Positions 611 to 61,600 of a DNA stretch of 64,000 nucleotides are shown here, one piece after another. The position numbers and the translations under genes are program-made. The notes below the pieces were generated by a model that was given only the letters and a program-made list of their open reading frames with translations, was not told where the DNA came from and made no database searches. The first letter of the stretch is position 1. Each line of letters opens with the position of its first letter. This DNA is from Octopus vulgaris. Its lineage: Eukaryota. Location: assembly GCA_951406725.2 (NCBI GenBank), contig OX597831.1:46190001-46254000 (forward strand). Reading direction: 5' to 3'.

Positions 611-1599
611 AAATGCAAGCAAGCAAAAGTAAAGAAACTCGGCTGACACAGTGGGACAGAAAACGTTCAGGAATAAGGCCTGGATCCAGTGAATTCCCCC
701 AGAGATTGCCAGGAGAAGACGCAAATTGATTCTTGCACAGTTTCAGGATAATAATTGAGAGAAATCTGTCGGGTTAAATTGAGTTTAATTTTATTAAAGC
801 CACAAGCAATACGTCACTTGAGATAACGTAATACTTTTCTCTAAAGAGAGTCTGTGAGAGAATGATGGAATGTTACGGGCATATAATAATAGAATATACA
901 TAAACGCATAGTTTAACTAACCTAGTAAAAATATATAGAAACGAGGTTTATCCTTCAGAGAATATACCGAAACATTTTCATATAATAACAGAAATATATA
1001 TAAACGAAGAATTTAACTAACCTTGTAAAAATATATAATCGATGTCTACGCTACAGAGAATATACTGAAAAATGTAGGGGAAATCAAAATGATGTTGAAA
1101 TTATTTGCAACTGTAATATATTTTCACGAGAGAGAACGCTATTACTCTAGAAACGGCTATTATTCTGTCCGCATGCACTAAGGACGTTCTCTGTTTTCCT
1201 CGATTTCTAAACTATCAAGTTTCTGTAAAGAAGAAAAACAAAACATTCCATAAATTACATCCAGATGGTAAATAATTTCATTTTTAATTTTAATGAATGT
1301 CTCTCTTCGTAATTCATCCGATTAATAAGTTGCAGATTATATGATGCTGAATTTTTCGAAAACAAATGAAATAGCACTCTACATGATTAATATGTACTAG
1401 AAATTATAAAAGCATCGTAACAGATTAAAACAGATTGAATATAAGAATTTTAAGCATATTCTTTTTTGTCGTCCCTAATTTCATATTCAAATTTCTAGTC
1501 CCGCCTCGTGTTGTGAGGGAATAGTTATTTTCCTTGTTCTAACGACTACTGCCAGAGGGAACAACATGTATTTTATCAAATGTCTGCCCTTGTGATTTA

Positions 1600-3960
1600 T
1601 TGATCGTTCTACTGTGTGTAAGAGTGCTTGTATTTGTGAATCATTTTTTGAGAAGAGTTTCAAGCCATTCATATAAAGTAGATGATTAACTGTTTTTCCA
1701 CTCACGTTGTAACCATACTATCTTTCATTTAGGAGTTTACTTAGAGGAAAAATAGTGCTAAGCAGAATAACAAAGGAGGTAAGAGACTCCTTGAAAGATT
1801 CCACGTTTAATGTTGAGTCTACATATGTATTTGTAGAGACAGTGTTGAGAATTAATGTCGTTTCGACAGAGCTCCATGGCATGGGATACAAAAACCCTGA
1901 TTAATGGTGAAATTTTGAATATCTCAAAGCGTCATTTTTATTTAGCTGTGAGGAAGACTATCAAAATTCTTTTGTACTCTATCCATGCCACTGAGAGATG
2001 TCTTTACCTGATATGATGTTTTTTCACGTGTGAAATACAAGATTTTCTGGTTATTAGTGAAATTTTGAACAACTCCGGGCATTTATTTATAAAGCTGTGA
2101 AGAGGACGATCAATGGCTGTCTTGTAGTCTATACAGCCTACTGAGAGATGTTTTCCTTTTGTGATAATGTTCAAAAATCATTCTGAGTTTTTTTTTGTTC
2201 ATCAGGGAAGATGTTGTTAATGAGAAAATTATATGTATGTTTATTAGGAGATATATATATGGGTATTGTACATTGTTGAAAGTCAGGTTATAGGCCTGTA
2301 GTAGTTAGGGGTTTTTGTTTAATTTTTTTAGAGAGTAAAAAGATCCTACCATTGGCCAGCCATTGTGGTGTGGTCTGCGATTCTTTCATAATTGCGTAGT
2401 ACAACACGTTAGTTTCTTGTGTGAGTTTGTAAACATATTGAACCAGTAGTTGGGAACTTATCCATAGCAGATGACTTTTTAAATGCGTGTCTAACACCTA
2501 GTATACTTATCTCTTACCATATTTACTCTTCAATAAGCTCAGCGTCTTCTTTTCTTCCATTAATCCATAGGATGTCATAGTTGTGCTACTTTTCACCTAC
2601 AAAAATTTTCCTCTAGAATTCCAGTATTTCATGCTGTGAGTGGACTTCTATTTTGATGGTGCTTTTTCCAATATGCCAGTAGAACATCTTTGGATTATTA
2701 GGAAACATGCGGTTATCTTTGAAGAAACTGGACTGTTTTCGATGTGGCCTATATGCGTGGTTTCGCCTTCACTTTTTGATATATCTTCTTCACCACTCCA
2801 CCAGATTGGTGTTCTAACTTTAATTCGAACTTTTACACTATCTTTCTCTTCTTAGAAGGTTTTATATTTTGATTGTTGCTTAGGTTTTTCTGTTTCTATA
2901 TTAGCTCAGAGACCATTGATTTGATTTGTGATCATTATTTTCTTGCCTGTTGGTCTTTCATAACGTTTTGTCACTCTCTTTTTCAGTTTTGCGTCTTACA
3001 TTTAGAGTACATCATTCAACGATATGCTGTTTATGTTGGATTTGAGGGCTGTTTTCACCTGGCAGATTATTTTGCATGTTCATTTTTACTATTGTGAATC
3101 TTAGGAATGTCACTGCGTTCCTTCATGTCTACAGTTTTGGATTTTGATCCATTCATCGATCATTTCTTCTTCGAGCTCTTTCGGGTCCATTGCCTATATT
3201 ATTTAAATTGTTGATAGTCTCTTTAGTATGCTCATCTGCAATGACACGATCAGAGAGAATATTAAAGTTGTATCTAGTTATATGTCGTGTCGTTTATAAC
3301 TTCTTGCAAAGATTTTTCTTCTATGACTGACATAGTCTTTGCCTGTTGATTTGCGAGCTGTAATCGCTGGTTCGCTCCTTAGAACTGATTCATACATTTT
3401 CCTTTATCATTTGACGTCGGTTAACAATTTCTGTTTACAATATTTCTTCGTACATTTACAAGCTTGTTGCTGTCTATGTTCATTCTTGTGTTAGGATTCT
3501 TTTCCACATAGAATGATTCTGCTTGTTCAGAGTTTGAGACGTTTGTTGATTGATACATGACTATGTAGCAAGACTCAATAGCCTGTTTATTATCTTCTTT
3601 GGACCATTTCTCTCTTTTGATTTCATTGGTGCTTGTAGGTTTTGGGCTTGGAGGGCCTTGAGAAAGCCTTGTTCTGTTGTGGGAGACCTCCAGACTCATA
3701 TTGCTGGGAAGGAATCTCTTGTTCACCTGGGCGACGATTGATCCGATATAGATGATGCATCGTTGAGTTTTGGCTTGTGGCCATTAAAACAACATTGGGA
3801 TCAGGAGACGAGTCTGTTTGCTTCGAGTTAACTTTTGGACAGAACACCGCCTCCGAGTCCTTTGAATGGATGTGTTTCTCATATCGTAATCGCAAGAGTC
3901 TTACAGAGCGAATTTTGGTTGACATAACTCCAGGCATGACAGATTAGTGGTGATTTAAAC
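1600..3960 (-). mobile_element. Decayed, 3'-truncated R4/Dong-type non-LTR retrotransposon, copy A
   Basis: RT motifs NHLLYMNGLKLFSKND (cf. HLLYMDDLKL), IFQG.SL and NYRP, plus an N-terminal REKWSKEDNK region; many stops and frameshifts. Confidence 0.75.
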
Positions 3961-4841
3961 TAAAGGATTAATTGCTTCTTTTGCGTGTGTTGCTGCTAAG
4001 TCGCTTTGTTTTTGTTTTGTTCTACTTCGCTTGCGTCACGTGTTTTGCGTGTGTGTGTGTGTGTGTATGTGTGTGTGTTTGCATGTGCATATGAATATGC
4101 GCGTGCGAGCGTGTGTTGTGTGTCGTGTGTACATGTGTGTATGTGTGTGTGTGTGTATGTGTGCTTGGTGAGATAAAGGAAGAAAACAATAATTTTCTGT
4201 CGTCCAACCCATGTAAGGGAAATAAATCCACGTGCTTGAATTATGAACTACAAATCATGCATAATTTATCTTATACGTAAGATATTCTTTTTGTTTTTAT
4301 TTACTTCCCTGAGATACTCTACGTGCAACTCTTCCACAGCAGTAATATTTGATTCCTTTGAGTCTTTTAAACTAAAGTACATAGCATGCTCATTTGATGA
4401 GTGCAAGCTCAGAATCATATATATATATATTTATATATATATATTTATATATATATATAACTTAATTGGAAATGGATGCGTGGCCTTGTTCTTGTTACAA
4501 CTTTAACCCTCCGCAAATACCAAATTTTATTTAATTTGCTTTGCCGGAACAACTGTTTTAACGAAGTAGGGGAGTAGATAAAACAGGGGTCAACTGATGA
4601 ACGGATTGCTCTGTATGTTGCCTGCCTCGTTTCTTTATTTGTTTCTTTCGTTGTCCGAAAAAAAGTTCGTTTTCCATGTTTTAATTATGTTCCCGTTTTT
4701 CCATTTTCACAATTTTTTGACGTCCGGTATTTTAACCCATATATGCATGTATATATACATATATGTAGGTATGTACATATATGTATGTATATATGCATAT
4801 ATATATTATTTATATTATATATATGTATATATGTATGTATG

Positions 4842-6046: not shown

Positions 6047-6318
6047 TAGCAGATATTTTGCAAAATGTATTTCACGGACTAATACATGCTCACTAGCTGT
6101 GAAAGGATAATAAATTATAAGACACACAAGTACATATAACTACCAAATGCGGTGTGTGTTACATGTTGCATTCGATAGTATATGTTCCTATATTTTTGTC
6201 TTTTTATATGTCGGAACGTGTGATTATTCTTGTATAATGCATTTAATCGATATTGAAAGCTAATTACCCCAACATAGCAAGGCCAACTCAAGAGAAATTT
6301 GATCGAAAGAAATAATTA

Positions 6319-6891
6319 GGATCTTTTCATTTTGAAGGCCAGATTTTCCTAGTTAACTAAAGAATTTGAAACTTCGTATACTGGTAGAATGTGTCAAAAG
6401 AAAACATAATTGTAAACCAAAATGAAAACGGAATTGTAATTTCTAAGTTTAACGTTGTTTAATAATTCGAATTTTAACCAATGGTATTCTTTCTTTCGAC
6501 TTCAAATCAATTATTGCCTCTCAAAATATTGTTACTGTGACGTAAAAGCTATTTTGTGACGTAGTTAACGTAAACATGCAAATAGCTAAAATGTAAACAT
6601 CTGCTTATCGTAAACAGCTAAATTCGCTTGGCATCGTACACAGCTTTTTCAGTTCCCTGAATTATATTTGAAACAAAATAAAAATAAAAAGATTCATACG
6701 CATAAATATCCATCCTTAGACATCAGAAAGATTAGAAATGCAACAAAAATTTAAAATACCGGATCTTTACCTTTTGACCTACAGATTTAAAAAAATAATT
6801 TTTTCTAACTGAACACTTTCAAACTTCGTGGAGTATATATAAAATTTGTGTAGATCCTAAATAGCTATACACACATGTATACAAACATATG

Positions 6892-6928
<37 letters not shown>

Positions 6929-7119
6929 CTATACACACATATTCTAATACATATGCATATATGTGTATATATTTATAATGTGTGTGTATTATAGATGCAT
7001 ACATTATATATATATAAAAGATGTTTACATACAATATATATATATTTTATATACATCTACATGTATATGTATGTATGAATATATAAGTACCACAGAATTT
7101 GAATCAAACTGTTTTGATC

Positions 7120-7164
<45 letters not shown>

Positions 7165-7938
7165 ACACACACACATACATACACACATACTAAAATTACA
7201 TCGTTGGAGCAGTAATTTATTTATGTATTTTTTGTTATACAATTTATTTTTAAGCTGAATCCCTATCCTGCCATTAACCCCTTTCTTATAAAATAGTTGA
7301 AGAATCTGGGGTGTAGGAATTGGGCCAGTATTGGAACTTTTAACTTCTTGCTCTCTATCTTATGATCTCCGAAATTTAAGAATCTTGTGTTAACTGGGCT
7401 CTTATTATTTACTCTGACTCTGCCACCACCTCAATGCAAAGACTATCAATATCAGAATCATCTTCACAACCACCACTGAGACATCCTAACATAATCAATG
7501 CCACTACTACTATCATCATCCACTGCCGCCACCACCACCACCACCTCTACAAAAACACCAACACTATAATTGCTGCCATCATTTACATCCACTGTCACCA
7601 CTACACCACCACACCACCACCACCACCACTGCCATGATAACCACATCTACCACAGCTGTTTGCTTACTGCTTTATCCACGCTGTTTAAAATTTTCACAAA
7701 ATAGCTGTCTACGTCACAGTAACACTATGCAGTTAATGATTTCAAATGAAAACAGACAATACGATTGGTTAAAATTCGCAGATTTAAACTACGTTTAAAC
7801 TTATGAAATACATTTTTCTCAAAAAAACAAGATGAAATTAATGTTTTCTTTTGACACATTCTACCAGTATACGAAGTTTCAGATTATTTAGTTAACTAGA
7901 AAAATCTGAAAGATCTGGCCTTCAAAATGAAAAGATCC
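6319..7938. mobile_element. Non-autonomous TIR DNA transposon with 8-bp TSD (Merlin-like GG ends)
   Basis: Perfect 26-bp TIR ggatcttttcattttgaaggccagat, extending imperfectly for ~250 bp. TSD aataatta at 6311-6318 and 7939-7946. The empty site is present in unit 3 (~31405). Confidence 0.88.
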
Positions 7939-8442
7939 AATAATTAAATGTGATGATGCCCTAATGTGTGTATCTACTAATTTTGAAGTCTCGTATAAGC
8001 TCGTGTAAGCACATACAGTTCCATCCAAAATGGACGCGATTACCAGCATCCAAAAGGCAGAGCTTGAAAAATCGCCTTTGAGAAGACACTATTGAAACAA
8101 TGTTACTCCCAAATAAATTATATATATGTATATTCAGACACACAGTACTCACCAAAAAGCTTTTAATTAGTTCAGTGTAGTTACATACTCTGATTGTTTT
8201 ATTTATTTTAATATAACGCTTAAATGTTTAGGTAAAATTATTTTACATGGTGAATATTTTAAACTGGGAAGAACTTGCCGTGTTCATTTCAGGTGAAATG
8301 TTTCATTTGCGAAAAGATATAAGGTGACGAATTCATTGAGTTTCGATATTTTGTTTTTATTTAGCTGTGAGGATGACTATCAAAAGTCTTTTGTACTCTA
8401 TCCATGCCACTGAGAGATGTCTTTTCCTGATATGATGTTTTT

Positions 8443-9501
8443 TCACGTGTGAAATACAAGCTGGAAAATGTTGTGAAACAAAGCAAGTATTTCCTTACGA
8501 AACTGCCGATTGAAAACTCCGTAAATACACGGATTAAGAACAGAGCTGATATAAAAAGAATAATTTAAGAATTTGTGAATCACTAGTTCTTTATCACTTG
8601 CAACGAATTCAAAATCTTTAACAAACAACCACCAGAATGCTCCAATGAAATGTGGTATGTAACTGATTATCCATACCAAGGTGATAACAAAGAATATTAT
8701 ATTAGACCGAGCTGGTGGTCTTTTACGACGGTCAAAAGGGATGCTACTACTATCTGTAGACTGACCTGACTGAAGTTTGGAACTGTTACGAGTTGTGGTT
8801 TCACGAAACTGATCTGCTCTTATTTTCTTAATTTTGTAAATTCTCCAAATGCGTATTCCAATTAATAAGTATATAATCAAAAGAATCATAAACAAACAAG
8901 AGCAAATGGATGTCAGAGTAGTATAATAGACTAAAGAATATAATGTGCCATTTATATAAGGAGAAAGTGCACACACTTCTCCAATATATCCACATTGTTC
9001 CACCATTGTGTTTTGTCTGCCGTATACAAAATATGATGGTGTAGACAAAATAAACGCGAAGATTGATAAAAATGCTAGAATTTTTTTTGAATTATTAGCG
9101 GAAATATTTTGCTTAAGAGGTCGACATATGAGAATGTATCTATCGACAGCTATAAGAAACACAATGAAAGCTGAATTAATTACTGCTACAGCTACCACAC
9201 CACGTATCACACGACATGCAGCATCATTGTGAAATGTGTAGGAAAAATGTAGAACTACAATGTCCATAGGTATACATATTGTGCAAGTTAGAAAATCACA
9301 CACCGCGAGTGCTATAATGAACAAATGCGTGGCTGTCTCATTAAATTTATAATAGTATATATATGATACGAAGCAATTTCCAATTGCTCCAATTGCCATT
9401 GAAATTCCGAGATACATTATCACTGGAAAATAAACATCCACCATTCTTGTACTTAGTTCTACTGAAATACTAGCACAAATGTCACTATTGTTTTGCTCCA
9501 T
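8443..9501 (-). CDS. Class A (rhodopsin-like) 7TM GPCR, array copy 1 (352 aa)
   Basis: Uninterrupted ORF with seven hydrophobic segments and class A motifs: TM1 GN, TM2 LAVCD, TM3 Cys and DRY(ILICRP), ECL2 Cys, TM6 SYIP, TM7 NPCIY, helix 8 FNRQFR, N-terminal NNS sequon. The ligand cannot be assigned. Confidence 0.92.
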   Translation of the reverse strand: MEQNNSDICASISVELSTRMVDVYFPVIMYLGISMAIGAIGNCFVSYIYYYKFNETATHLFIIALAVCDFLTCTICIPMDIVVLHFSYTFHNDAACRVIRGVVAVAVINSAFIVFLIAVDRYILICRPLKQNISANNSKKILAFLSIFAFILSTPSYFVYGRQNTMVEQCGYIGEVCALSPYINGTLYSLVYYTTLTSICSCLFMILLIIYLLIGIRIWRIYKIKKIRADQFRETTTRNSSKLQSGQSTDSSSIPFDRRKRPPARSNIIFFVITLVWIISYIPHFIGAFWWLFVKDFEFVASDKELVIHKFLNYSFYISSVLNPCIYGVFNRQFRKEILALFHNIFQLVFHT

Positions 9502-9566: not shown

Positions 9567-9585
9567 CTGGAACGAAAAAAATGCT
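9567..9585 (-). promoter_or_regulatory. Putative 3' splice acceptor 65 nt upstream of the GPCR ATG (equivalent site in all four copies)
   Basis: The minus strand reads tttttttcgttccag|G in copies 1-3 and cttttctttgtctttccag|G in copy 4, at identical spacing. Confidence 0.65.
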
Positions 9586-9784
9586 GGTTTGTAACTATTT
9601 AATTTTCCATAAACTCTGAAATATGCTTTACATCGAGAGTTAAGTAAACAAAGACGTGTACAAAATCAAGAAATACGTTTATCAAATATCAATTATACAT
9701 GATATTTATGAACGAATATTTGTGGATATACAGTGAAATTGTTAAATATTAAGCGTTCATCACAATTATCAATAAATAGGATAC

Positions 9785-10023
<239 letters not shown>

Positions 10024-10601
10024 CGTGCAGGACTTGTTAAGTGTTCGACATCAATCATATATTGGGAAGAGTAGTAAATGAACCATATAAGTATGTGCTT
10101 GTGTGTATGTGTGTGTTCGTTTTTAATGGTTGAATCCGAAGTAGATGAAGCTGTAAATAATAGTATATAGATATTAGGTTAAAAATACCATTTGGGAGGA
10201 AGGCGTGGCAGGCTACCCTTGGGTCTCGAACCTACACGTATTGCAAAACATGACAGACGTTCTGCTATTGAACCAAAGTAATATTTGGAGCTTCTGTATC
10301 CATTTTCGAAACTCTTTTCTTACCAGCGAGAACTGCATGTTTTTGACATCATAAAAAATTTGAAATTTCAAGATAATGTGAAATAATTCGTTTTTTACAT
10401 TTGAAGTGGAAGTAGATAAAGTTATAAATAATAGCGTCTAAATATTGACTTAAGGAACACTGGGTAGAAAAAGCCGAAAATATGTATCTATGTATGTATG
10501 TATGTATGTATGTATGTATGTATGTATGTATGTATGTATGTATGTATGTATGTATGTATGTATGTGTGCGTGTGCGTGTGTGCATGTATGTACGTACGTA
10601 C

Positions 10602-10632
<31 letters not shown>

Positions 10633-12099
10633 TGTATGTATGTATTATGAAAACCATATTATTTGAGATCAAGGAATTGATTTTTCTCCAGGAAGAAAGT
10701 TATGTTTGATCCCACTGGCTTCTCGAATTTTTTAACAATACGAGTGTTTAGTAGATTAGGCGGTAATTCACCGTGAGCAACTTATTTCCCTCTTCATAAT
10801 AGTCGGAACTGTCTAACACAGCTTCTCCATCACGTTGATGGCTTTCTAAAAGCTTTAGGAGAGGGGGTACAGTACAGGTGTTATTTATTTTGATTTCAGT
10901 CAAGTTTTTCACAAAATGTATCACAGAATTCCGCTGAAGAAATTATCCACATTTAGAGTCCGTGTTAAGCTACAGCGGTAGATTAAATATTTTCTGACAA
11001 ATAGGACTCGATATTTTATGGCTCATGCAATTTAAACAAGAGTAATAATTAGTGGTGTTAGACCCACTTCCGTTTAATGTTTACATAAACAACTTGAAAA
11101 TGCCAGCAATCAAAAGTAAAGAATAAGTTTAGAAACTCGGCTGACACAGTGGGACAGAAAACGTTCAGGAATAAGGCCTGGATCCCGTGAATTCCCCCAG
11201 AGATTGCCAGGAGAAGACGCAAATTGATTCTTGCACAGTTTCAGGATAATATTTGAGAGAAATCTGTCGGGATAAATTGAGTTAAATTTTATTAAAGCCA
11301 CAAGCAATACGTCACTTGAGATAACGTAATACTTTTCTCTAAAGAGAGTCTGTGAGAGAATGATGGAATGTTACGGGCATATAATAATAGAATATACATA
11401 AACGCATAGTTTAACTCACCTAGTAAAAATATATAGAAACGAGGTTTATGCTTCAGAGAATATACCGAAACATTTTCATATAATAACAGAAATATATATA
11501 AACGAAGAATTTAACTAACCTTGTAAAAATATATAAAATCGATGTCTACGCTTCAGAGAATATACTGAAAAATGTAGGGGAAATCAAAATGATGTTGAAA
11601 TTATTTGCAACTGTAATATATTTTCACGAGAGAGAACGCTATTACTCTAGAAACGGCTATTATTCTGTCCGCATGCACTAAGGACGTTCTCTGTTTTCCT
11701 CGATTTCTAAACTATCAAGTTTCTGTAAAGAAGAAAAACAAAACATTCCATAAATTACTTCCAGATGGTAAATAATTTCATTTTTAATTTTAATGAATGT
11801 CTCTCTTCGTAATTCATCCGATTAATAAGTTGCAGATTATATGATGCTGAATTTTTCGAAAACAAATGATATAGCACTCTACATGATTAATATGTACTAG
11901 AAATTATAAAAGCATCGTAACAGATTAAAACAGATTGAATATAAGAATTTTACGAATATTCTTTTTTGTAGTCCCTAATTTCATATTCAAATGTCTAGTC
12001 CCGCCTCGTGTTGTGAGGGAATAGTTATTTTCCTTGTTCTAACGACTACTGCCAGAGGGAACAACATTTTTTTTATCAAATGTCTGCCCTTGTGATTTA

Positions 12100-14420
12100 T
12101 TGATCGTTCTACTGTGCGTAAGTGTGCTTGCATTTGTTGATCGTTTTTTGAGAAGAGTTTCAAGCCACTCATATAAAGTAGATGATTAACTGTTTTTCCA
12201 CTCACGTTGTAACCATACTTTCTTTCATTCAGGAGTTTACTTAGAGGAAAATTAGTGCTAAGTAGAATAACAAAGGAGGTAAGAGACTCCTTGAAAGATT
12301 CCACGTTTAATGTTGAGTCTACATATGTATTTGTAGAGACAGTGTTTAAAATTAATGTCGTTTCTACAGAGCTCCATGGCATGAGATACAAAAACCCTGA
12401 TTAATGGTGAAATTTTGAATATCTCAAAGCGTCATTTTTACTTAGCTGTGAGGAAGACTATCAAAAGTCTTTTGTACTCTAGATTTTCTGGTTATTAGTG
12501 AAATTTTGAACAACTCCGGGCATTTATTTATAAAGGTGTGAAGAGGACGATCAATGGCTGTCTTGTAGTCTATCCAGCCTACTGAGAGATGTTTTCCTGT
12601 TGTGATAATGTTCAAAAATCATTCTGAGTTTTTTTTTTTCATCAGGGAAGATGTTGTTAATGAGAAAATTATATGTATGTTTATTAGGAGATATATATAT
12701 GGGTATTGTACATTGTTGAAAGTCAGGTTATAGGCCTGTACTAGTTAGGGGTTTCTGTTTAATTTTTTTAGAGAGTAAAAAGATCATACCATTGACCAGC
12801 CATTGTGGTGTCGTCTGCGATTCTTTCATAATTGCGTAGTACAACACGTTAGTTTCTTGTGTGAGTTTGTAAACATATTGAACCAGTAGTTTGGGATCTT
12901 ATCCATAGCAGATGACTTTTTAAATGCGTGTCTAACACCTAGTATACTTATCTCTTACCATATTTACTCTTCAATAAGCTCAGTATCTTCTTTTTGTCTA
13001 TTAATCCATAGGATGTCATAGTTGTGCTACTTTTCATCTACAAAAATTTTCTTCTAGAATTCCAGTATTTCATGCTGTGAGTGGACTTCTATTTTGATGG
13101 TGCTTTTTCCAATATGCCAGTAGAACATCTTTGGATTATTAGGAAACATGCGGTTATCTTTGAAGAAACTGGACTGTTTTCGATGTGGCCTATATGCGTG
13201 GTTTCGCCTTCACTTTTTGATTTATCTTCTTCACCACTCCACGAGATTGGTGTTCTAACTTTAATTCGAACTTTTACACTATCTTTCTCTTCTTAGAAGG
13301 TTTTATATTTTGATTGTTGCTTAGGTTTTTCTGTTTCTATAATAGCTCAGAGACCATTGATTTGATTTGTGATCATTATTTTCTTGCCTGTTGGTCTTTC
13401 ATAAGGTTTTGTCACTCTCTTTTTCAGTTTTGCGTCTTAGATTTTGGTGTAGATTATAGCAGCAGTATAGTGTACGCCATTCAACGATATGCTGTTTATG
13501 TTGGATTTGAGGGCTGTTTTCACCTGGCAGATAATTTTGCATTTTCATTTTTTACTATTGTGAATCTTAGGAATGTCACTGCGTTCTTCATGTTCACAGT
13601 TTTGGATTTTGATCCATTCATCGATCATTTCTTCTTCGAGCTCTTTCGGTTCCATTGCCTATATTATTTAAATTGTTGATCGTCTCTTTAGTATGCTCAT
13701 CTGCAATGGCACGATCAGAGAGAATATTAAGGTTGTATCTAGTTATATGTCGTGTCGTTTATAACTTCTTGCAAAGATTTTTCTTCTATGACTGACAGTC
13801 TTTGCCTGTTGATTTGCGAGCTGTAATCGCTAGTTCGCTCCTTAGAACTGATTCATACATTTTCCATTATCGTTTTACGTCGGTTAACAATTTCTGTTTA
13901 CAATATTTCTTCGTACATTTACAAGCTTGTTGCTGTCTATGTTCATTCTTGTGTTAGGATTCTTTTCCATATAGAATGATTATGCTTGTTCAGAGTTTGA
14001 GACGTCTGTTGATTGATACATGACTATGTAGCAAGACTCAATAGCCCGTTTATTATCTCCTTTGGACCATTTCTCTCTTTTGATTTCATTGGTGCTTGTA
14101 GGTTTTGGGCTTGGAGGGCCTTGAGAAAGACTTGTTCTGTTGTGGGAGACCTCCAGACTCATATTGCTGGGAAGGAATCTCTTGTTCACCTGGGCGACGA
14201 TTGATCCGATATAGATGATGCATCGTTGAGTTTTGGCTTGTGGCCATTAAAACAACATTGGGATTAGGAGACGAGTCTGTTTGTTTCGAGTTAACTTTTG
14301 GACAGAACACCGCCTCCGAGTCCTTTGAATGGATGTGTTTCTCATATCGTAATCGCAAGAGTCTTACAGAGCGAATTTTGGTTGACATAACTCCAGGCAT
14401 GACAGATTAGTGGTGATTTA
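12100..14420 (-). mobile_element. R4/Dong-type LINE remnant, copy B
   Basis: Paralogous to copy A, with a 59-bp internal deletion at 12480/12481. Confidence 0.75.
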
Positions 14421-15246
14421 AACTAAAGGATTAATTGCTTCTTTTGCGTGTGTTGCTGCTAAGTCGCTTTGTTTTTGTTTTGTTCTACTTCGCTTGCGTC
14501 ACGTGTTTTGCGTGTGTGTGTGTGTATGTGTGTGTTTGCATGTGCATATGAATATGCGCGTGCGAGCGTGTGTTGTGCGTCGTGTGTACATGTGTGTATG
14601 TGTGTGTGTGTATGTGTGTTTGGTGAGATACAGGAAGAAAACAATAATTTTCTGTCGTCCAACCCATGTAAGGGAAATAAATCCACGTGCTTGAATTATG
14701 AACTACAAATCATGCATAATTTATCTTATACGTAAGATGTTCTTTTTGTTTTTATTTACTTCCCTGAGATACTCTACGTGCAACTCTTCCACATCAGTAA
14801 TATTTGATTCCTTTGAGTCTTTTAAACTAAAGTACATAGCATGCTCATTTGATGAGTGCAAGCTCAGAATCATATGTATATATTTATATATATATATATA
14901 ACTTAATTGGAAATGGATTCGTGGCCCTGTTTTTGTTACCACTTTAACCCTCCGCAAATTCCAAATTTTATTTAATTTGCTTTGCAGGAACGACTGTTTT
15001 AACGAAGTAGGGGAGTAGATAAAACAGGGTCAACTGATGAACGGATTGCTCTGTATGTCGCCTGCCTCGTTTCTTTATTTGTTTCTTTCGTTGTTCGAAA
15101 AAAAGTTCGTTTTCCATGTTTTAATTATGTTCTCGTTTTTCCATTTTCACAATTTTTTGACGTCCTGTATTTTAACCCATATATGCATGTATATATACAT
15201 ATATGTAGGTATGTACATATATGTATGTATATATGCATATATATAT

Positions 15247-18120: not shown

Positions 18121-18661
18121 CTAGCAAACGCACCTGTCCTTTGGACGGTTTAAGTTGCTTTCGTGGTTTATTTTACAACAAATAATTGAACTACCGAGAA
18201 GGTTTATGTATAGGATGGCAATCTGTTACCGACTAACCTGGGAACGGAAAATCAAATTGTAGGCTGGTTATTATGGAGGTCGTTGCACTTTGATTATCAT
18301 AGAACATATAAGTTTGCAAGCGATGTAAAGTAGAGCTACTGAAGAGTTTTGGGAGTAGATTACGGATAATGACTACAATATATACAAGATAGCAGATATT
18401 TTGCAAAATGTATTTCACGGACTAATACATGCTCACTAGCTGTGAAAGGATAATAAATTATAAGACACACAAGTACATATAACTACCAAATGCGGTGTGT
18501 GTTACATGTTGCATTCGATAGTATATGTTCCTATATTTTTGTCGTTTTATATGTCGGAACGTGTGATTATTCTTGTATAATGCATTTAATCGCTATTGAA
18601 AGCTAATTACCCCAACATAGCAAGGCCAACTCAAGAGAAATTTGATCGAAAGAAATAATTA

Positions 18662-20318
<1,657 letters not shown>

Positions 20319-20823
20319 AATAATTAAATATGATGATGCCCTAATGTGTGTATCTACTAATTTTGAAGTCTCGTATAAGCTCGTGTAAGCACATACAGTT
20401 CCATCCAAAATGGACGCGATTACCAGCATCCAAAAGGCAGAGCTTGAAAAATCGCCTTTGAGAAGACACTATTGAAACAATGTTGCTCCATAAATAAATT
20501 ATATATATGTATATTCAGACACACAGTACTCACCAAAAAGCTTTTAATTAGTTCAGTGTAGTTACATACTCTGATTGTTTTATTTATTTTATTATAACGC
20601 TTAAATGTTTAGGTAAAATTATTTTACATGTTGAATATTTTAAACTGGGAAGAACTTGCCATGTTCATTTCAGGTGAAATGTTTCCTTTGCGAAAAGATA
20701 TAAGGTGACGAATTCATTGAGTTTCGATATTTTGTTTTTATTTAGCTGTGAGGAAGACTATCTAAAGTCTTTTGTACTCTATCCATGCCACTGAGAGATG
20801 TCTTTTCCTGATATGATGTTTTT

Positions 20824-21882
20824 TCACGTGTGAAATACAAGCTGGAAAGTGTTGTGAAACAAAGCAAGTATTTCCTTACGAAACTGCCGATTGAAAACTC
20901 CGTAAATACACGGATTAAGAACAGAGCTGATATAAAAAGAATTATTTAAGAATTTGTGAATTACACGTTCTTTATCACTTGCAACGAATTCAAAATCTTT
21001 AACAAACAACCACCAGAATGCTCCAATGAAATGTGGTATGTAACCGATTATCCAGACCAAGGTGATGAGAAAGAATATTAAATTGGACCGAGCTGGTGGT
21101 ATTTTACGACGGTCAAAATAGATGCTACTACTATCTGTAGACTGACCTGACTTAAGTTTGGAACTGTTACGAGTTGTGGTTTCACGAAACTGATCTGCTC
21201 TTATTTTCTTAATTTTGTAAATTCTCCAAATGCGTATTCCAATTAATAAGTATATAATCAAAAGAATCATAAACAAACAAGAGCAAATGGATGTCAGAGT
21301 AGTATAATAGACTAAAGAATATATTGTGCCATTTATATAAGGAGAAAGTTCACACACTTCTCCAATATTTCCACATTGTTCCACCCTTGTGTTTTGTCTG
21401 CCGTATACAAAATATGATGGTGTAGACAAAATAAACGCCAAGATTGTTAAAAATGCTAGAATTTGTTTTGAATTATTAGCGGAAATATTTTGCTTAAGAG
21501 GTCGACATATGAGAATGTATCTATCGACAGCTATAAGAAACACAATGAAAGCTGAATTAATTACTGCTACAGCTGCCACACCACGTATCACACGACATGC
21601 AGCATCATTGTGAAATGTGTAGGAAAAATGTAGAACTACAATGTCTATAGGTATACATATTATGCAAGTTAGAAAATCACACACCGCGAGTGCTATAATG
21701 AACAAATGCGTGGCTGTCTCATTAAATTTATAATAGTATATATATGATACGAAGCAATTTCCAATTGCTCCAAGTGCCATTGAAATTCCGAGATACATTA
21801 TCACTGGAAAATAAACATCCACCATTCTAGTATTTAGTTCTACTGAAATACTAGCACAAATGTCACTATTGTTTTGCTCCAT
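20824..21882 (-). CDS. Class A GPCR, array copy 2 (352 aa)
   Basis: Same motifs as copy 1, with about 21 amino-acid differences by eye and the same VFHT* C-terminus. Confidence 0.92.
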   Translation of the reverse strand: MEQNNSDICASISVELNTRMVDVYFPVIMYLGISMALGAIGNCFVSYIYYYKFNETATHLFIIALAVCDFLTCIICIPIDIVVLHFSYTFHNDAACRVIRGVAAVAVINSAFIVFLIAVDRYILICRPLKQNISANNSKQILAFLTILAFILSTPSYFVYGRQNTRVEQCGNIGEVCELSPYINGTIYSLVYYTTLTSICSCLFMILLIIYLLIGIRIWRIYKIKKIRADQFRETTTRNSSKLKSGQSTDSSSIYFDRRKIPPARSNLIFFLITLVWIIGYIPHFIGAFWWLFVKDFEFVASDKERVIHKFLNNSFYISSVLNPCIYGVFNRQFRKEILALFHNTFQLVFHT

Positions 21883-25909: not shown

Positions 25910-28295
25910 ATTGATCGTTCTACTGTGCGTAAGAGTGCTTGTATTTGTGAATCATTTTTGAGAAGAGTTTCAAGCCACTCATATAAAGTAGATGATTAAC
26001 TGTTTTTCCACTCACGTTGTAACCATACTTTCTTTCATTCAGGAGTTTACTTAGAGGAAAATTAGTGCTAAGTAGAATAACAAAGGAGGTAAGGAGACTC
26101 CTTGAAAGATTGCATGATTAATATTGAGCCTACATTTATATTTGTTGAGACAGTGTTGAGAATTAATGTCGTTTCGACAGAGCTCCATGGCATGAGATAC
26201 AAAAACCCTGATTAATGGTGAAATTTTGAATATCTCAAAGCGTCATTTTTATTTAGCTGTGAGGAAGACTATCAAAAGTCTTTTGTACTCTATCCATGCC
26301 ACTGAGAGATGTCTTTACCTGATATGATGTTTTTTCACGTGTGAAATACAAGATTTTCTGGTTACTAGTGAAATTTTGAACAACTCCAGGCATTTATTTA
26401 TAAAGCTGTGAAGAGGACGATCAAAGGATGTCTTGTAGTCTATCCAGCCTACTGAGAGATGTTTTCCTGTTGTGACAATGTTCAGAAATCATTCTGTGTT
26501 TTTTTTTGTTCATCAGGGAAGATGTTGTTAATGAGAAAATTATATATATGTTTATTAGGAGAGATATATATGGGTATTGTACATTGTTAAAAGTCAGGTT
26601 ATAGGTCTGTAGTAGTTAGGGGTCTTTGTTTCATTTTTTTAGAGAGTAAAAAGATCATACCATTGGCCAGCCATTGTGGTGTGGTCTGCGATTCTTTCAT
26701 AATTGCGTAGTACAACACGTTAGTTTGTTGTGTGAGTTTGTAAACATATTGAACCAGTAGTTTGGGATCTTATCCATAGCAGATGACTTTTTAAATGCGT
26801 GTCTAACACCTAGTATACTTATCTCTTACCATATTTACTCTTCAATAAGCTCAGTATCTTCTTTTTGTCTATTAATCCATAGGATGTCATAGTTGTGCTA
26901 CTTTTCATCTACAAAAATTTTCCTCTAGAATTCCAGTATTTCATGCTGTGAGTGGACTTCTATTTTGATGGTGCTTTTTCCAATATGCCAGTAGAACATC
27001 TTTGGATTATTAGGAAACATGCTGTTATCTTTGAAGAAACTGGACTGTTTTCGATGTGGCCTATATGCGTGGTTTCGCCTTCACTTTTTGATTTATCTTC
27101 TTCACCACTCCACGAGATTGGTGTTCTGACTTTAATTCGAACTTTTACACTATCTTTCTCTTCTTAGAAGGTTTTATATTTTGATTGTTGCTTAGGTTTT
27201 TCTGTTTCTATATTAGCTCAGAGACCATTGATTTGATTTGTGATCTTTATTTTCTTGCCTGTTGGGCTTTCATAAAGTTTTTCACTCTCTTTTTCAGTTT
27301 TACGTCTTACATTTTGGTGTAGATTATAGCAGCAGTATAGTGTACGCCATTCAACGATATGCTGTTTATGTTGGATTTGAGGGCTGTTTTCACCTGGCAG
27401 ATTATTTTGCATTTTCATTTTTTACTAGTGTGAATCTTAGGAATGTCACTGCGTTCCTTCATGTCTACAGTTTTGGATTTTGATCCATTCATCGATCATT
27501 TCTTCTTCGAGCTCTTTCGGTTCCATTGCCTATATTATTTAAATTGTTGATAGTCTCTTTAGTATGCTCATCTGCAATGACACGATCAGAGAGAATATTA
27601 AGGTTGTATCTAGTTATATGTCGTGTCGTTTATAACTTCTTGCAAAGATTTTTCTTCTATGACTGACATAGTCTTTGCCTGTTGATTTGCGAGCTGTAAT
27701 CGCTGGTTCGCTCCTTAGAACTGATTCATACATTTTCCATTATCGTTTGACGTCGGTTAACAATTTCTGTTTACAATATTTCTTCGTACATTTACAAGCT
27801 TGTTGCTGTCTATGTTCATTCTTGTGTTAGGAGTCTTTTCCACATAGAATGATTATGCTTGTTCAGAGTTTGAGACATCTGTTGATTGATACATGACTAT
27901 GTAGCAAGACTCAATAGCCCGTTTATTATCTTCTTTGGACCATTTCTCTCTTTTGATTTCATTGGTGCTTGTAGGTTTTGGGCTTGGAGGGCCTTGAGAA
28001 AGACTTGTTCTGTTGTGGGAGACCTCCAGACTCATATTGCTGGGAAGGAATCTCTTGTTCACCTGGGCGACGATTGATCCGATATAGATGATGCATCTTT
28101 GAGTTTTGGCTTGTGGCCATTAAAACAACATTGGGATTAGGAGACGAGTCTGTTTGTTTCGAGTTAACTTTTGGACAGAACACCGCCTCCGAGTCCTTTG
28201 AATGGATGTGTTTCTCATATCGTAATCGCAAGAGTCTTACAGAACGAATTTTGGTTGACATAACTCCAGGCATGACAGATTAGTGGTGATTTAAA
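25910..28295 (-). mobile_element. R4/Dong-type LINE remnant, copy C
   Basis: Paralogous to copy A. Confidence 0.75.
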
Positions 28296-31790: not shown

Positions 31791-32867
31791 TCATTGAGTT
31801 TCGATATTTTGTTTTTTACATAGCTGGAAAATGTTGTAAAATAAAGCAATTATTTCCACACGAAACTGCCGATTGAAAACTCCGTAAATACACGGATTAA
31901 GAACAGAGCTGATATAAAAAGAATAATCTAAGAATTTGCGCATTACATGTTCTGTATCACTTGCAACGTCTTCAAAATCTTTAACAAGCAACCACCAGAA
32001 TACTCCAATGAAATGTGGTATGTAACCGATTATCCAGACCAAGGTGATAACAAAGAATATTAAATTAGACATAGCTGGTGGTCTTTTACGACGCTCAAAA
32101 GAGACTTTACAACTATCTGTAGACTGACCTGAAGGAGGTTTGGAAGTGTTACGAGTTGTGGTTTCACGAAACTGATCTGCCCTTTTTTTCTTAATTTTGT
32201 AAATTCTCCAAATGCGCATTCCAATTAATAAATATATAATCAAAAGAATCATAAACAAACAAGAGCAAATGGATACCCCAGTAGTATAATAGACTAAAGA
32301 ATATATTGTGCCATTTATATAAGGAGAAAGTGCACACACTTCTCCAATATTTCCACATTGTTTCACCATTTTGTTTTGTCTGCCGTATACAAAATATGAT
32401 GGTGTAGACAAAATAAACGCCAAGATTGTTAAAAATGCTAGAATTTTTTTTGAATTCTTAGCGGAAATATTTTGCTTAAGAGGTCGACATATGAGAATGT
32501 ATCTATCGACTGCTATAAGAAACACAATGAAAGCTGAATTCATTATTGCTAGAGCTACCACACCACGTATCACACGACATGCAGCATCATTGTGAAATTT
32601 GAAGGAAGAATGTAGAACTACAATGTCCATAGGTATACATATTATGCAAGTTAGAAAATCACACACCGCGAGTGCTATAATGAACATATGCGTGGCTGTC
32701 TCATTAAACTTATAATAGTATATATATGATACGAAGCCATTTCCAATTGCTCCAAGTGCCATTGCAATTCCGAGATACGTTACCACTGGAAAATAAACAT
32801 CCACCATTCTAGTATTTAGTTCTTCTAAAATACTAGCACAAATGTTGTCACTATTGTTTTGCTCCAT
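31791..32867 (-). CDS. Class A GPCR, array copy 3 (358 aa)
   Basis: Same motifs; keeps the inferred ancestral C-terminus QLCKKQNIETQ*. Confidence 0.92.
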   Translation of the reverse strand: MEQNNSDNICASILEELNTRMVDVYFPVVTYLGIAMALGAIGNGFVSYIYYYKFNETATHMFIIALAVCDFLTCIICIPMDIVVLHSSFKFHNDAACRVIRGVVALAIMNSAFIVFLIAVDRYILICRPLKQNISAKNSKKILAFLTILAFILSTPSYFVYGRQNKMVKQCGNIGEVCALSPYINGTIYSLVYYTTGVSICSCLFMILLIIYLLIGMRIWRIYKIKKKRADQFRETTTRNTSKPPSGQSTDSCKVSFERRKRPPAMSNLIFFVITLVWIIGYIPHFIGVFWWLLVKDFEDVASDTEHVMRKFLDYSFYISSVLNPCIYGVFNRQFRVEIIALFYNIFQLCKKQNIETQ

Positions 32868-35029: not shown

Positions 35030-37380
35030 TTATTGATCGTTCTACTGTGTGTAAGAGTGCTTGTATTTGTGAATCATTTTTTGAGATAGTTTCAAGCCAT
35101 TCATATAAAGTAGATGATTAACTGTTTTTCCACTCACGTTGTAACCATACTTTCTTTCATTCAGGAGTTTACTTAGAGGAAAATTAGTGCTAAGTAGAAT
35201 AACAAAGGAGGTAAGGAGACTCCTTGAAAGATTGCACGATTAATATTGAGCCTACATTTATATTTGTTGAGACAGTGTTGAGAATTAATGTCGTTTCTAC
35301 AGATCTCCATGGCATAAGATACACAAACCCAGATAAATGGTGAAATTTTGAACATCTCAAAGCGTCATTTTTATTTAGCTGTGAGGAAGACTATCAAAAG
35401 TCTTTTGTACTCTATCCGCGCCACTGAGAGATGTCTTTTCCTGATATGATGTTTTTTCACGTGTGAAATACAAGATTTTCTGGTTACTAGTGAAATTTTG
35501 AACAACTCCAGGCATTTATTTATAAAGCTGTGAAGAGGACGAACAAAGGATGTCTTGTAGTCTATCCAGCCTACTGAGAGATGTTTTCCTGTTGTGATAA
35601 CGTTCAAAAATCATTCTGAGTTTTTTTTTGTTCATCAGGGAAGATGTTGTTAATGAGAAATTTATACGTATGTTTATTAGGAGATATATATATGGGTATT
35701 GTACATTGTTGAAAGTCAGGTTATAGGTCTGTAGTAGTTAGGGGTTTTTGTTTCATTTTTTTAGAGGGTAAAAAGATCATACCATTGGCCAGCCATTGTG
35801 GTGTCGTCTGCGATTCTTTCATAATTGCGTAGTACAACACGTTAGTTTGTTGTGTGAGTTTGTAAACATATTGAACCAGTAGTTTGGGATCTTATCCATA
35901 GCAGATGACTTTTTAAATGCGTGTCTGACACCTAGTATACTTATCTCTTACCATATTTACTCTTCAATAAGCTCAGTATCTTCTTTTTGTCTATTAATCC
36001 ATAGGATGTCATAGTTGTGCTACTTTTCATCTACAAAAATTTTCCTCTAGAATTCCAGTATTTCATGCTGTGAGTGGACTTCTATTTTGATGGTGCTTTT
36101 TCCAATATGCCAGTAGAACATCTTTGGATTATTAGGAAACATGCTGTTATCTTTGAAGAAACTGGACTGTTTTCGATGTGGCCTATATACGTGGTTTCGC
36201 CTTCACTTTTTGATTTATCTTCTTCACCACTCCACCAGATTGGTGTTCTAACTTTAATTCGAACTTTTACACTATCTTTCTCTTCTTAGAAGGTTTTATA
36301 TTTTGATTGTTGCTTAGGTTTTTCTGTTTCTATATTAGCTCAGAGACCATTGATTATTTTCTTGCCTGTTGGTCTTTCATAAGGTTTTGTCACTCTCTTT
36401 TTCAGCTTTGCGTCTTACATTTAGAGTACATCATTCAACGATATGCTGTTTATGTTGGATTTGAGGGCTGTTTTCACCTGGCAGATTATTTTGCATTTTC
36501 ATTTTTTACTAGTGTGAATCTTAGGAATGTCACTGCGTTCCTTCATGTCTACAGTTTTGGATTTTGATCCATTCATCGATCATTTCTTCTTCGAGCTCTT
36601 TCGGTTCCATTGCCTATATTATTTAAATTGTTGATAGTCTCTTTAGTATGCTCATCTGCAATGACACGATCAGAGAGAATATTAAGGTTGTATCTAGTTA
36701 TATGTCGTGTCGTTTATAACTTCTTGCAAAGATTTTTCTTCTATGACTGACATAGTCTTTGCCTGTTGATTTGCGAGCTGTAATCGCTGGTTCGCTCCTT
36801 AGATCTGATTCATACATTTTCCATTATCGTTTGACGTCGGTTAACAATTTCTGTTTACAATATTTCTTCGTACATTTACAAGCTTGTTGCTGTCTATGTT
36901 CATTCTTGTGTTAGGATTCTTTTCCACATAGAATGATTCTGCTTGTTCAGAGTTTGAGACGTTTGTTGATTGATACATGACTATGTAGCAAGACTCAATA
37001 GCCCGTTTATTATCTTCTTTGGACCATTTCTCTCTTTTGATTTCATTGGTGCTTGTAGGTTTTGGGCTTGGAGGGCCTTGAGAAAGCCTTGTTCTGTTGT
37101 GGGAGACCTCCAGACTCATATTGCTGGGAAGGAATCTCTTGTTCACCTGGGCGGCGATTGATCCGATATAGATGATGCATCGTTGAGTTTTGGCTTGTGG
37201 CCATTAAAACAACATTGGGATTAGGAGACGAGTCTGTTTGTTTCGAGTTAACTTTTGGACAGAACACCGCCTCCGAGTCCTTTGAATGGATGTGTTTCTC
37301 ATATCGTAATCGCAAGAGTCTTACAGAACGAATTTTGGTTGACATAACTCCAGGCATGACAGATTAGTGGTGATTTAAAC
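35030..37380 (-). mobile_element. R4/Dong-type LINE remnant, copy D
   Basis: Paralogous to copy A; ORF pieces KHLSVGWIDYK and AIFQGVSLPPLLF. Confidence 0.75.
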
Positions 37381-44561: not shown

Positions 44562-44661
44562 NNNNNNNNNNNNNNNNNNNNNNNNNNNNNNNNNNNNNNN
44601 NNNNNNNNNNNNNNNNNNNNNNNNNNNNNNNNNNNNNNNNNNNNNNNNNNNNNNNNNNNNN
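44562..44661. other. Assembly gap (100 N)
   Basis: Run of N. Confidence 1.
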
Positions 44662-45601: not shown

Positions 45602-46684
45602 TCAATGAGTTTCGATATTTTGTCTTTTACATAGCTGGAAAATGTTGTGAAATAAAGAAAGTAATTCATCACGAAACTGCCGATTGAAAACCCCGTAGAT
45701 ATACGGGTTAAGAGCAGAACTGAGATAAGAAGAATAGAATAAAAACTTGTGAATCACTAGATCTTTATCACTTGCAACGTAATCAAAATCTTCAACAAAC
45801 AACCTCCAGTATATTCCAATGAAATGTGGTATGTAACTGATAATCCAGATCAAGGTGATAACGAAGAGTATTAAAGTAGCCCAAGCTGGTGGCACTGGTT
45901 GCTTTCTAAGACGCGCAAAAGCGGTAGAACTAATATCTGTAGACTGACCTTCAGGTTTGGAAATGTTAGGAGTTGTGAAGGCTTCACGAAACTGATTTGC
46001 TTTATTTTTCTTCGCTTTGTAAATTTTCCAAATGCGCATTCCAATTAATATGTATATAATGAAAAGAATGATAAACATACAGCAGCAAACGGTTGATCCA
46101 GTAGTGTAATAAGCAAAAAAATTTATTGTGCCATTTATATAAGGAGAATATGCACAAACTCCTCCAATATCGCCACATTGTTCCACCATTTTGTTTTGTG
46201 TGCCGGATACAAAAATTGATGGTGCAGACAAAATGAACGCGATGATTGTTAAACATGCTAAAATTGTTTTTGAATTCTTAACGGAAATACTTTGTTTAAG
46301 AGGTCGACATATGAGAATGTATCTATCGACTGCTATAACAAACACAATGAAAGCTGAATTGGTTATTGCTGCAACTGTCACAGAACGTATCATACGACAT
46401 GCAACATCACTGTGAAACGTATAGGGAAAACGTAGAACTACAATGTCCATAGGTATACATATTATGCAAGTTAGAAAATCACACACCGAGAGTGCTACAA
46501 TGAACATATGCATGGCTGCCTCATCAAATTTATAATAGTATATGTATGATACAAAGCAATTTCCAATTGCTCCAAGTGCCATTGAAATTCCGAGATACGT
46601 TATCACTGGAAAATAAACATCCACCATTTTGGTATTTAGTTCTAAAATACTAACGCAAATGTTGACACTGTTGTTTTGCTCCAT
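45602..46684 (-). CDS. Class A GPCR, array copy 4, most divergent intact paralog (360 aa)
   Basis: GN, LSVCD, DRY, SYIP, NPYIY and FNRQFR motifs; C-terminus QLCKRQNIETH*. Confidence 0.92.
   Translation of the reverse strand: MEQNNSVNICVSILELNTKMVDVYFPVITYLGISMALGAIGNCFVSYIYYYKFDEAAMHMFIVALSVCDFLTCIICIPMDIVVLRFPYTFHSDVACRMIRSVTVAAITNSAFIVFVIAVDRYILICRPLKQSISVKNSKTILACLTIIAFILSAPSIFVSGTQNKMVEQCGDIGGVCAYSPYINGTINFFAYYTTGSTVCCCMFIILFIIYILIGMRIWKIYKAKKNKANQFREAFTTPNISKPEGQSTDISSTAFARLRKQPVPPAWATLILFVITLIWIISYIPHFIGIYWRLFVEDFDYVASDKDLVIHKFLFYSSYLSSALNPYIYGVFNRQFRDELLSLFHNIFQLCKRQNIETH

Positions 46685-59396: not shown

Positions 59397-61600
<2,204 letters not shown>

What the first reader, a model, noticed from the sequence alone, without database searches (positions are those of the whole stretch)
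8354..8460. ~100 bp piece of the neighbouring LINE copied into the GPCR 3' end, creating a new C-terminus
Seen: in copies 1 (8354-8460) and 2 (20735-20841), the sequence tttttatttagctgtgagg...cacgtgtgaaatacaag sits inside what is the C-tail of copies 3 and 4. It nearly matches an internal RT segment of the unit's own R4-type LINE (1935-2041, ~26246-26352, ~35367-35473). There is no TSD or tail. Junction similarity is short (ttttacatagctg vs tttatttagctg on the left, ag on the right). The insertion supplies codons VFHT and a new TGA, replacing CKKQNIETQ*; the old tail and stop survive just downstream. Inference: a microhomology-mediated templated insertion (template switch or repair) exapted TE sequence as coding. 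It removed the Cys after helix 8, a common palmitoylation position, so trafficking or signalling could differ.
Basis: partly seen in the sequence, partly recalled or inferred. Interest (0 to 1): 0.8.

Follow-up and report, generated by a model that had tools for sequence, protein, structure and literature searches.

The report
LINE patch rewrites octopus receptor tail
A DNA copying accident pasted about 100 bases from a dead neighbouring retrotransposon into the end of a duplicated octopus receptor gene, giving it a shorter tail without a conserved cysteine; this kind of event is known, and whether it changed the receptor's behaviour is untested.

Summary
Confirmed. Two of four tandem class A GPCR paralogs (G1, G2) share one insertion (net +95 bp) that is 97-98% identical to the RT motif-A region of a decayed LINE fossil in the same array. 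There is no target-site duplication or tail. The junctions carry 5 bp and 2 bp of microhomology inside longer imperfect matches (12 of 14; 6 of 7). A contig from another organism label bridges the LINE/GPCR junction, so it is not an assembly error. A run with a spliced contig holds G1/G2-type sequence as its deepest form.

Best explanation: a local DNA template switch out and back, before G1 and G2 duplicated. The patch gives VFHT-stop, destroys a Cys kept in 8 of 10 other family members, and adds an AATAAA 81 nt after the stop; use of that signal is only weakly hinted.

New here: the fossil copy upstream of G1 has a 59-bp deletion ending at the insert's right junction (chance about 1-3%), possibly a scar of the same event, though the array's history argues for a later date. 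This is a known class of event (class 2 templated insertion or MMBIR-like). Exaptation and functional change are not shown.

The parts
8443..9501 (-). GPCR paralog G1 coding sequence, 352 aa, ending FQLVFHT then TGA (8445-8443)
   Evidence: Pfam 7tm_1 E 7e-27
8354..8460 (-). LINE-derived insert in G1 with its microhomologies (5 T at 8354-8358; AG at 8459-8460); 96-nt core 8359-8454
   Evidence: right junction bridged in X9
8356..8361 (-). AATAAA brought in by the insert, 81 nt after the new stop; absent at this place in G3 and G4
   Evidence: use only weakly hinted
8336..8358 (-). Remains of the ancestral tail codons and old stop, now 3' UTR; Cys codon lost
20824..21882 (-). GPCR paralog G2, same VFHT tail
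20735..20841 (-). Same insert in G2, identical junctions, 2 of 107 bases differ from G1's
31791..32867 (-). G3, ancestral tail CKKQNIETQ; empty target site near 31811-31825
45602..46684 (-). G4, ancestral-type tail CKRQNIETH
9567..11519 (-). 5' intron of G1 (GT-AG, about 1.95 kb); exon 1 runs from 11520 to at least about 11708
   Evidence: X3 contig joins 9568 to sequence found at this exon edge in units 2-4; assignment to G1's own copy is by position
12089..14457 (-). Fossil LINE copy L2, upstream of G1 exon 1; RT truncated just after the YxDD-like motif
12435..12482 (.). Damaged donor in L2: 46 bp kept, then a 59-bp deletion after 12480 whose right breakpoint falls in the insert's right junction; private T>C at 12441 that matches the GPCR target
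1935..2041 (-). Donor segment in fossil copy L1 (fossil about 1589-3994)
26246..26352 (-). Donor segment in L3, the closest match (2 differences); one copy of an old 150-bp tandem duplication of RT motif A (about 75% identity)
35368..35474 (-). Donor segment in L4; shares one ancestral base with the insert where L1 and L3 have a derived stop
6313..7946 (.). 1.6-kb element with imperfect terminal inverted repeats, present downstream of G1 and G2 but not G3; a second shared marker of the G1/G2 clade

Best explanation
One germline repair or replication accident in the ancestor of G1 and G2. A DNA 3' end at the start of the receptor's tail left its template and paired with a short imperfect match in the decayed LINE copy a few kb away in the same orientation. 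It copied about 100 nt and returned through a second short match (SDSA-, MMBIR- or polymerase-theta-like templated insertion). One base was lost, or five replaced. The gene then duplicated. The result is an intact, transcribed receptor whose tail ends four residues after helix 8, has no Cys, and has an AATAAA 81 nt after the stop. Shown: donor, junctions, single origin, new tail, presence in a second organism label. Inferred: DNA rather than RNA template, direction of copying, use of the AATAAA, loss of palmitoylation. The change is most likely tolerated or mildly modulating, not a selected novelty.
For: Identical junctions in G1 and G2. They also share a 3-bp deletion and a 1.6-kb element absent from G3. 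No duplication or tail. The left match is 12 of 14, joint-best in the donor block; 20 sites reach that score in the window on both strands, 8 of them the donors, inserts and targets themselves. The right match is 6 of 7. The insert keeps the fossil's stop and frameshift. In X8, X9 and X10 the only LINE flanks among the 24 of 40 loose ends shown are this fossil's. The insert shows the donor's bases inside the longer match, as expected if a strand copied from the plus strand re-annealed there; that template is antisense to LINE RNA (inference). X9 bridges the junction. X3 has a spliced contig, and G2-like pieces at depth 173-245 against 50-82 for more divergent pieces. 0 of 31 donor-acceptor pairs tried in silico give the ancestral tail.
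Against: Direction is not settled: the opposite direction leaves the 12-of-14 match unexplained but fits a T-run primer on an A-run of RNA. Published templated insertions are often RNA-linked (PMC5110952; 10.1101/2022.09.30.509517). No whole genome is held, so identical donors outside the window cannot be excluded. X3's library type is not on record, and no X3 piece among the 32 of 238 shown bridges a junction. One 9-letter loose end at 8448 suggests a related LINE may add depth there. X10 shows only the ancestral joint.
Confidence: 0.66

Rival explanations
1. Coupled donor scar (a refinement of the best explanation). L2 was the physical donor and was broken or stalled at the same base. One accident gave the insert in G1 and the 59-bp deletion in L2, and gene conversion later copied the insert to G2.
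For: The deletion's right breakpoint lies in the insert's right junction. It is 1 of 5 deletions of 10 bp or more among four 3.9-kb copies; chance is 0.010 for that junction and 0.028 for either. L2 also has a private base in the left match that moves it to 13 of 14 with the target; L2 has 47 private changes in 3822 sites, so at most about 2.5% for two sites. Conversion is common here: G1/G2 differ by 14 of 1801 downstream against 103 of 3822 for L1/L2, p 6e-7. Insertions are enriched near broken donors in human cells (10.1101/2022.09.30.509517, abstract).
Against: L1 and L2 are sisters at 25 of 45 informative sites, including 15 of the 16 between 1801 and 2321, yet L1 is intact. That dates the deletion after the duplication that the insert most simply predates. 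The insert region (10 of 530 differences) is older than the recent conversion tract (p 0.045). A 6-bp hairpin beside the breakpoint could make it a shared hot spot (whole region z -1.08). Both coincidences were noticed after the fact.
Confidence: 0.35
2. RNA-templated patch. A T-rich 3' end at a nick or break primed reverse transcription on an internal A-run of a transcript carrying the fossil in sense, for example read-through from the neighbouring paralog. A LINE RT or polymerase theta did the copying, and the cDNA joined by microhomology.
For: Insert, fossil and gene share one orientation; the target resembles TTTT/A. An L1-clade frame with endonuclease and RT domains lies in the same window. 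Class 2 insertions are attributed to RNA templates (PMC5110952).
Against: It leaves the extra 7-of-9 match beyond the T-run unexplained and gives no reason for lesions in L2. There is no duplication or A-tail. Published RNA patches come from distant loci, not from the next few kb.
Confidence: 0.2
3. The insert is a mild lesion in a redundant paralog under relaxed selection, and the new tail has no adaptive meaning.
For: dN/dS is about 1 in all six pairs. Relatives P0004, P0006 and P0007 have tails as short or shorter, and two lack the Cys. In the A2A receptor, adding a palmitoylated Cys did not change surface expression or ligand binding (PMC3516756, passages).
Against: All four frames are intact and their indels keep the frame, even at dS about 0.19. 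G2-like pieces are the deepest in X3. The Cys is kept even in a 25%-identical relative.
Confidence: 0.5
4. Assembly chimera, or a segment that is spliced out.
For: The window is repeat-rich and has a gap. X10 shows only the ancestral joint.
Against: Two copies with private differences; X9 bridges the junction; no skip inside the insert is listed for X3; 0 of 31 splice pairs restore the tail.
Confidence: 0.03

Closest known systems
Class 2 templated sequence insertion polymorphisms (Onozawa and Aplan, PMC5110952; parts 1-2 of 4 read)
   Same: Germline patch of about 100 bp, partial LINE sequence as template, microhomology and microdeletion, no target-site duplication or poly(A).
   Different: The donor is a few kb away in the same tandem array, not distant. 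One donor copy is damaged at the junction. The patch lands in coding sequence and has since been duplicated.
MMBIR-linked templated insertions (PMC8421209; passages)
   Same: Switch out and back with 2-12 bp microhomology or imperfect microhomeology; found as germline variants.
   Different: The classic signature is an inverted copy within 100 bp; here it is a direct copy from kilobases away.
Endonuclease-independent or internally primed LINE insertion (as summarised in PMC5110952; internal priming recalled)
   Same: Internal LINE piece without duplication or tail.
   Different: The template is a dead fossil with its own stops, so any RT would have to act in trans.
TE-derived C-termini and polyadenylation sites, such as the Alu-derived short TAF8 isoform (PMC12871804; search listing only)
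   Same: Element sequence supplies a new protein end and possibly a new transcript end.
   Different: Here the sequence arrived by copying of a fragment, not by transposition or intronic exonisation.
Cephalopod-expanded neuropeptide-receptor-like GPCRs, groups 1 and 2 (PMC6408891; passages)
   Same: Tandem octopus paralogs named cholecystokinin-, orexin- or vasotocin-receptor-like, with fast amino-acid change.
   Different: Group membership was not tested; the ligand is unknown and the names are automatic.

Membership tests
Class 2 templated sequence insertion | No target-site duplication and no poly(A) tail | tested here: met
Class 2 templated sequence insertion | Microhomology and microdeletion at the junctions | tested here: met
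   5 bp and 2 bp; 1 base lost or 5 replaced
Class 2 templated sequence insertion | Donor left intact (copy, not cut) | tested here: inconclusive
   3 of 4 donor copies intact; L2 lacks 59 bp but keeps 46 bp that the insert also has
Class 2 templated sequence insertion | Donor in a distant region | tested here: not met
   donor copies lie 4.1 and 6.4 kb from the G1 site
Class 2 templated sequence insertion | RNA intermediate | not testable with these tools
   only junction logic is available
Class 1 insertion / ordinary target-primed retrotransposition | Duplication of 5 bp or more, A-tail, signal 10-20 nt before the tail | tested here: not met
   features
MMBIR-type templated insertion | Microhomology or microhomeology at both switches and return to the original template | tested here: met
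MMBIR-type templated insertion | Inverted template within 100 bp (classic signature) | tested here: not met
   direct orientation, kilobases away; definition
RLE-type non-LTR element (R4/Dong-like) | Reverse transcriptase domain | tested here: met
   62 hits at E up to 0.001; 7 of 7 long hits scanned carry RVT_1 and align to the fossil
RLE-type non-LTR element (R4/Dong-like) | C-terminal CCHC knuckle and PD..D..K nuclease, no APE domain | tested here: inconclusive
   Of 7 relatives, 5 show CCHC, 3 show the nuclease motif, none has an APE hit; the fossil itself is cut before this part
RLE-type non-LTR element (R4/Dong-like) | Placement in the R4 clade by RT tree | not tested
   no named reference sequences were held; the clade name is recalled
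Class A GPCR | 7tm_1 domain, DRY and NPxxY motifs | tested here: met
Palmitoylated class A GPCR tail | Cys about 20 residues after TM7 that is S-acylated | tested here: inconclusive
   position fits (Y+22); acylation needs an experiment
Exapted TE sequence | Function or selection acting on the element-derived part | tested here: inconclusive
   VFHT-stop and AATAAA are unchanged in both copies, but only 2 of 107 bases differ, so there is no power; dN/dS about 1

The most novel reading that the evidence does not exclude
One repair accident scarred both donor and acceptor 4 kb apart and installed a complete new gene end. The stop codon comes from an off-frame reading of the RT, and the poly(A) signal exists only because the fossil had decayed. 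This founded a non-palmitoylated, short-UTR receptor clade that became the most expressed form and is shared between octopus species.
Probability: 0.15. Interest if true: 0.68.

Novelty: new member of a known kind. Interest (0 to 1): 0.42.

Why it matters
It is an unusually readable natural case of a templated insertion: the empty site, four donor copies and two descendants lie in one window, so junctions and order of events can be read directly. It shows that dead elements inside tandem gene arrays can feed sequence to neighbouring genes without transposing. The G2/G3 pair (85% identical) is a ready comparison for what a helix-8 cysteine does in an invertebrate receptor. If the donor deletion is linked, it would be a rare evolutionary record of both ends of such an event.

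Tried and rejected
Own-genome search: no genome is held, so donors and paralogs outside the window are unknown.

Protein search: 8 of 2003 candidates scored, best 73% identity, none of the 7 aligned ends in VFHT. None of the four window proteins is in the collection by exact match. A search for short C-terminal fragments scored 0 of 2 candidates.

Runs: no RNA holder is listed on record; this says nothing about expression. Only 4 of 24 listed runs were laid. No listed piece in X8 or X10 bridges a junction, which proves nothing (32 of 238 pieces shown; about 80% of X10 read). In X3, bins 8054-8281 are covered only by one divergent contig at depth 50.1, while depth over the insert is 195-331. 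This fits G1/G2 transcripts ending shortly after the new AATAAA, but it is one study, contigs only, and a part without cover. G3 has its own AATAAA 120 nt after its stop. Kept as a weak hint only.

Structure: the AlphaFold model of G3 was poor (mean pLDDT 52.5, tail under 50) and was not used to place helix 8.

Folding: the donor region is not more structured than shuffles (28 of 200 as good).

Earlier scan notes: nothing found.

Papers: a search for octopus + LINE + retrotransposon + GPCR + C-terminal tail + insertion found 0 papers; two searches listed none on this locus by title. Most subscription papers are not held, and no supplements were read.

Rejected: ordinary retrotransposition (no duplication or tail); a retrogene chimera (flanks and intron are shared among paralogs); splicing that restores the tail.

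Full report
Setting. The window holds four tandem minus-strand class A GPCR genes, G1 to G4. Their closest named relatives are Octopus proteins with automatic neuropeptide-receptor names, at most 73% identical to G1. Four copies of a 3.9-kb block, 2.5-3.6% diverged, each hold a decayed non-LTR element. A contig in run X3 joins 9568 to sequence found at the edge of this block in units 2-4, at GT-AG sites. The low end of the block is therefore the receptor's 5' exon, and each fossil sits just upstream of a receptor. L2 is the copy upstream of G1.

Observation. G1 and G2 carry 95 extra bases where G3 and G4 encode their tails. The 107-base span differs from L1, L3 and L4 by 3, 2 and 3 bases, and between G1 and G2 by 2. 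The donor encodes the RT motif-A region, aligned to RVT_1 proteins, and is one copy of an old 150-bp internal duplication. The insert keeps the fossil's stop and frameshift, so the template was already dead. It keeps an ancestral base where L1 and L3 have a derived stop. VFHT-stop is read off-frame from the RT. Of seven long relatives, five have a CCHC knuckle, three a PD..D..K motif and none an APE hit, which fits an RLE-type element; the R4 label is recalled and was not tested by tree.

Is it real? Of 24 listed runs, four were laid. X9, organism D, has a contig over 8419-8561 that bridges the right junction with 41 bases on the insert side. X10 shows the ancestral joint with five target bases between, and X8 and X9 show ancestral loose ends, as expected from G3-type paralogs. 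No listed piece in X8 or X10 bridges a junction; 32 of 238 pieces were shown. X3 has no library type on record, but its spliced contig marks it as probably RNA. Four of its pieces differ from G1 at exactly the number of sites where G2 does (3, 5, 1, 2), and a fifth equals G1. These have depth 173-245, against 50-82 for three more divergent pieces. Depth is continuous into the insert (521, then 331, then 195), but no shown X3 piece bridges a junction, and a 9-letter loose end at 8448 may come from a related element. In silico, 0 of 31 splice pairs and the exact excision restore the old tail.

Junctions and mechanism. The strict microhomologies are five T on the left and AG on the right. Both lie in longer imperfect matches: 12 of 14 on the left and 6 of 7 on the right. 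The left match is joint-best in the donor block on both strands. Twenty sites in the window reach that score, eight of them the donors, inserts and targets, so about one unrelated site per 10 kb. Pairing therefore guided the event. Read most simply, 96 bases were added and one was lost. The insert shows the donor's bases inside both matches, so the direction is ambiguous. If the minus strand was copied from a plus-strand template, the longer match explains the return and the template was DNA. If the plus strand was primed by the T-run, DNA or sense RNA could serve, but a 7-of-9 match is left to chance. With a donor 4-6 kb away, I favour a local DNA template switch (0.66) over an RNA patch (0.2). 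Such events are described as class 2 templated insertions (PMC5110952, parts 1-2 of 4) and MMBIR-linked insertions with imperfect microhomology (PMC8421209, passages). This case works like both but misses one defining feature of each: a distant donor, and a nearby inverted template.

The damaged donor. L2 lacks 59 bases of the donor, and the right breakpoint falls inside the insert's right junction. It is one of five deletions of 10 bases or more among the four copies; the chance is 0.010-0.028. L2 also has a private base in the left match that makes it 13 of 14 like the target. Insertions are enriched near broken donors in human cells (10.1101/2022.09.30.509517, abstract and passages). Against coupling: L1 and L2 group together at 25 of 45 informative sites, yet L1 is intact. 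The simplest history puts the insert before the G1/G2 duplication and the deletion after it. Coupling needs a later conversion. Conversion is evident downstream (14 of 1801 against 103 of 3822 differences), but the insert region looks older than that tract (10 of 530, p 0.045). A small hairpin beside the breakpoint could be a shared hot spot. I put coupling at 0.35.

Consequences. The tail after NPxxY shrinks from 30 to 25 residues and loses the Cys at Y+22. This Cys is present in 8 of 10 other family members, including one at 25% identity, and absent in two. Class A receptors usually carry a palmitoylated Cys about 20 residues after TM7; in the A2A receptor, adding one changed diffusion and coupling mode but not surface level (PMC3516756, passages). 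Loss of acylation is plausible, not shown. The insert also places an AATAAA 81 bases after the stop, made from the fossil's stop codon and the next codons. Its use is only weakly hinted (see Tried and rejected). dN/dS is 0.89-1.94 across six pairs, none different from 1, with all frames intact. This fits diversifying or relaxed selection; positive selection is reported for expanded cephalopod GPCR groups (PMC6408891, passages). Nothing ties selection to the insert, so exaptation is unproven.

Verdict. The feature is real and well resolved, and it belongs to a known kind. The searches showed no paper on this locus. Its extras, the possible donor scar and the new poly(A) signal, are testable but uncertain. 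Interest 0.42.

Noticed in passing
window 8443-46684 (four receptor genes): dN/dS is 0.89-1.94 between all paralogs while frames stay intact; G1/G2 against G3 gives 1.6-1.9 (p 0.07-0.13). Possible diversifying selection.
   Followed up: partly
window 6313-7946 and its copy near 18656-20326: 1.6-kb element with imperfect terminal inverted repeats and an apparent 8-bp target duplication, downstream of G1 and G2 only.
   Followed up: partly
window 1024-1562, 11520-12062 and copies; 50876-51358: Conserved 5' exon and probable promoter of the receptors. The fossil LINE abuts it in units 1-4. The G4 copy diverges around the splice donor.
   Followed up: partly
window 1897-2165 and copies: Old 150-bp tandem duplication of the RT motif-A region inside the fossil, about 75% identical.
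   Followed up: partly
window 41244-44819: Long L1-clade frame with endonuclease, RT and zinc-finger domains, running into the 100-N gap at 44562-44661.
   Followed up: no
window 55531-55656: Decayed 3' remnant of a fifth receptor paralog with downstream flank homology.
   Followed up: no
window 8448 (run X3): A contig matches up to 8448 and continues with 9 other letters; perhaps a related LINE copy. Unexplained.
   Followed up: partly
window 9263 and 9303 (runs X3, X10): Contigs leave the receptor coding region with long unrelated ends, the one at 9263 in both runs; perhaps an interrupted paralog or receptor fragment elsewhere.
   Followed up: no
window 2802-3667 and copies: L1 and L4 share a 24-bp deletion and several bases here, against the L1/L2 grouping elsewhere; a likely conversion tract.
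   Followed up: partly
window 58688-61292: Four tandem copies of a unit of about 500 bp; in three of them a 152-bp core is 100% identical to the others'.
   Followed up: no
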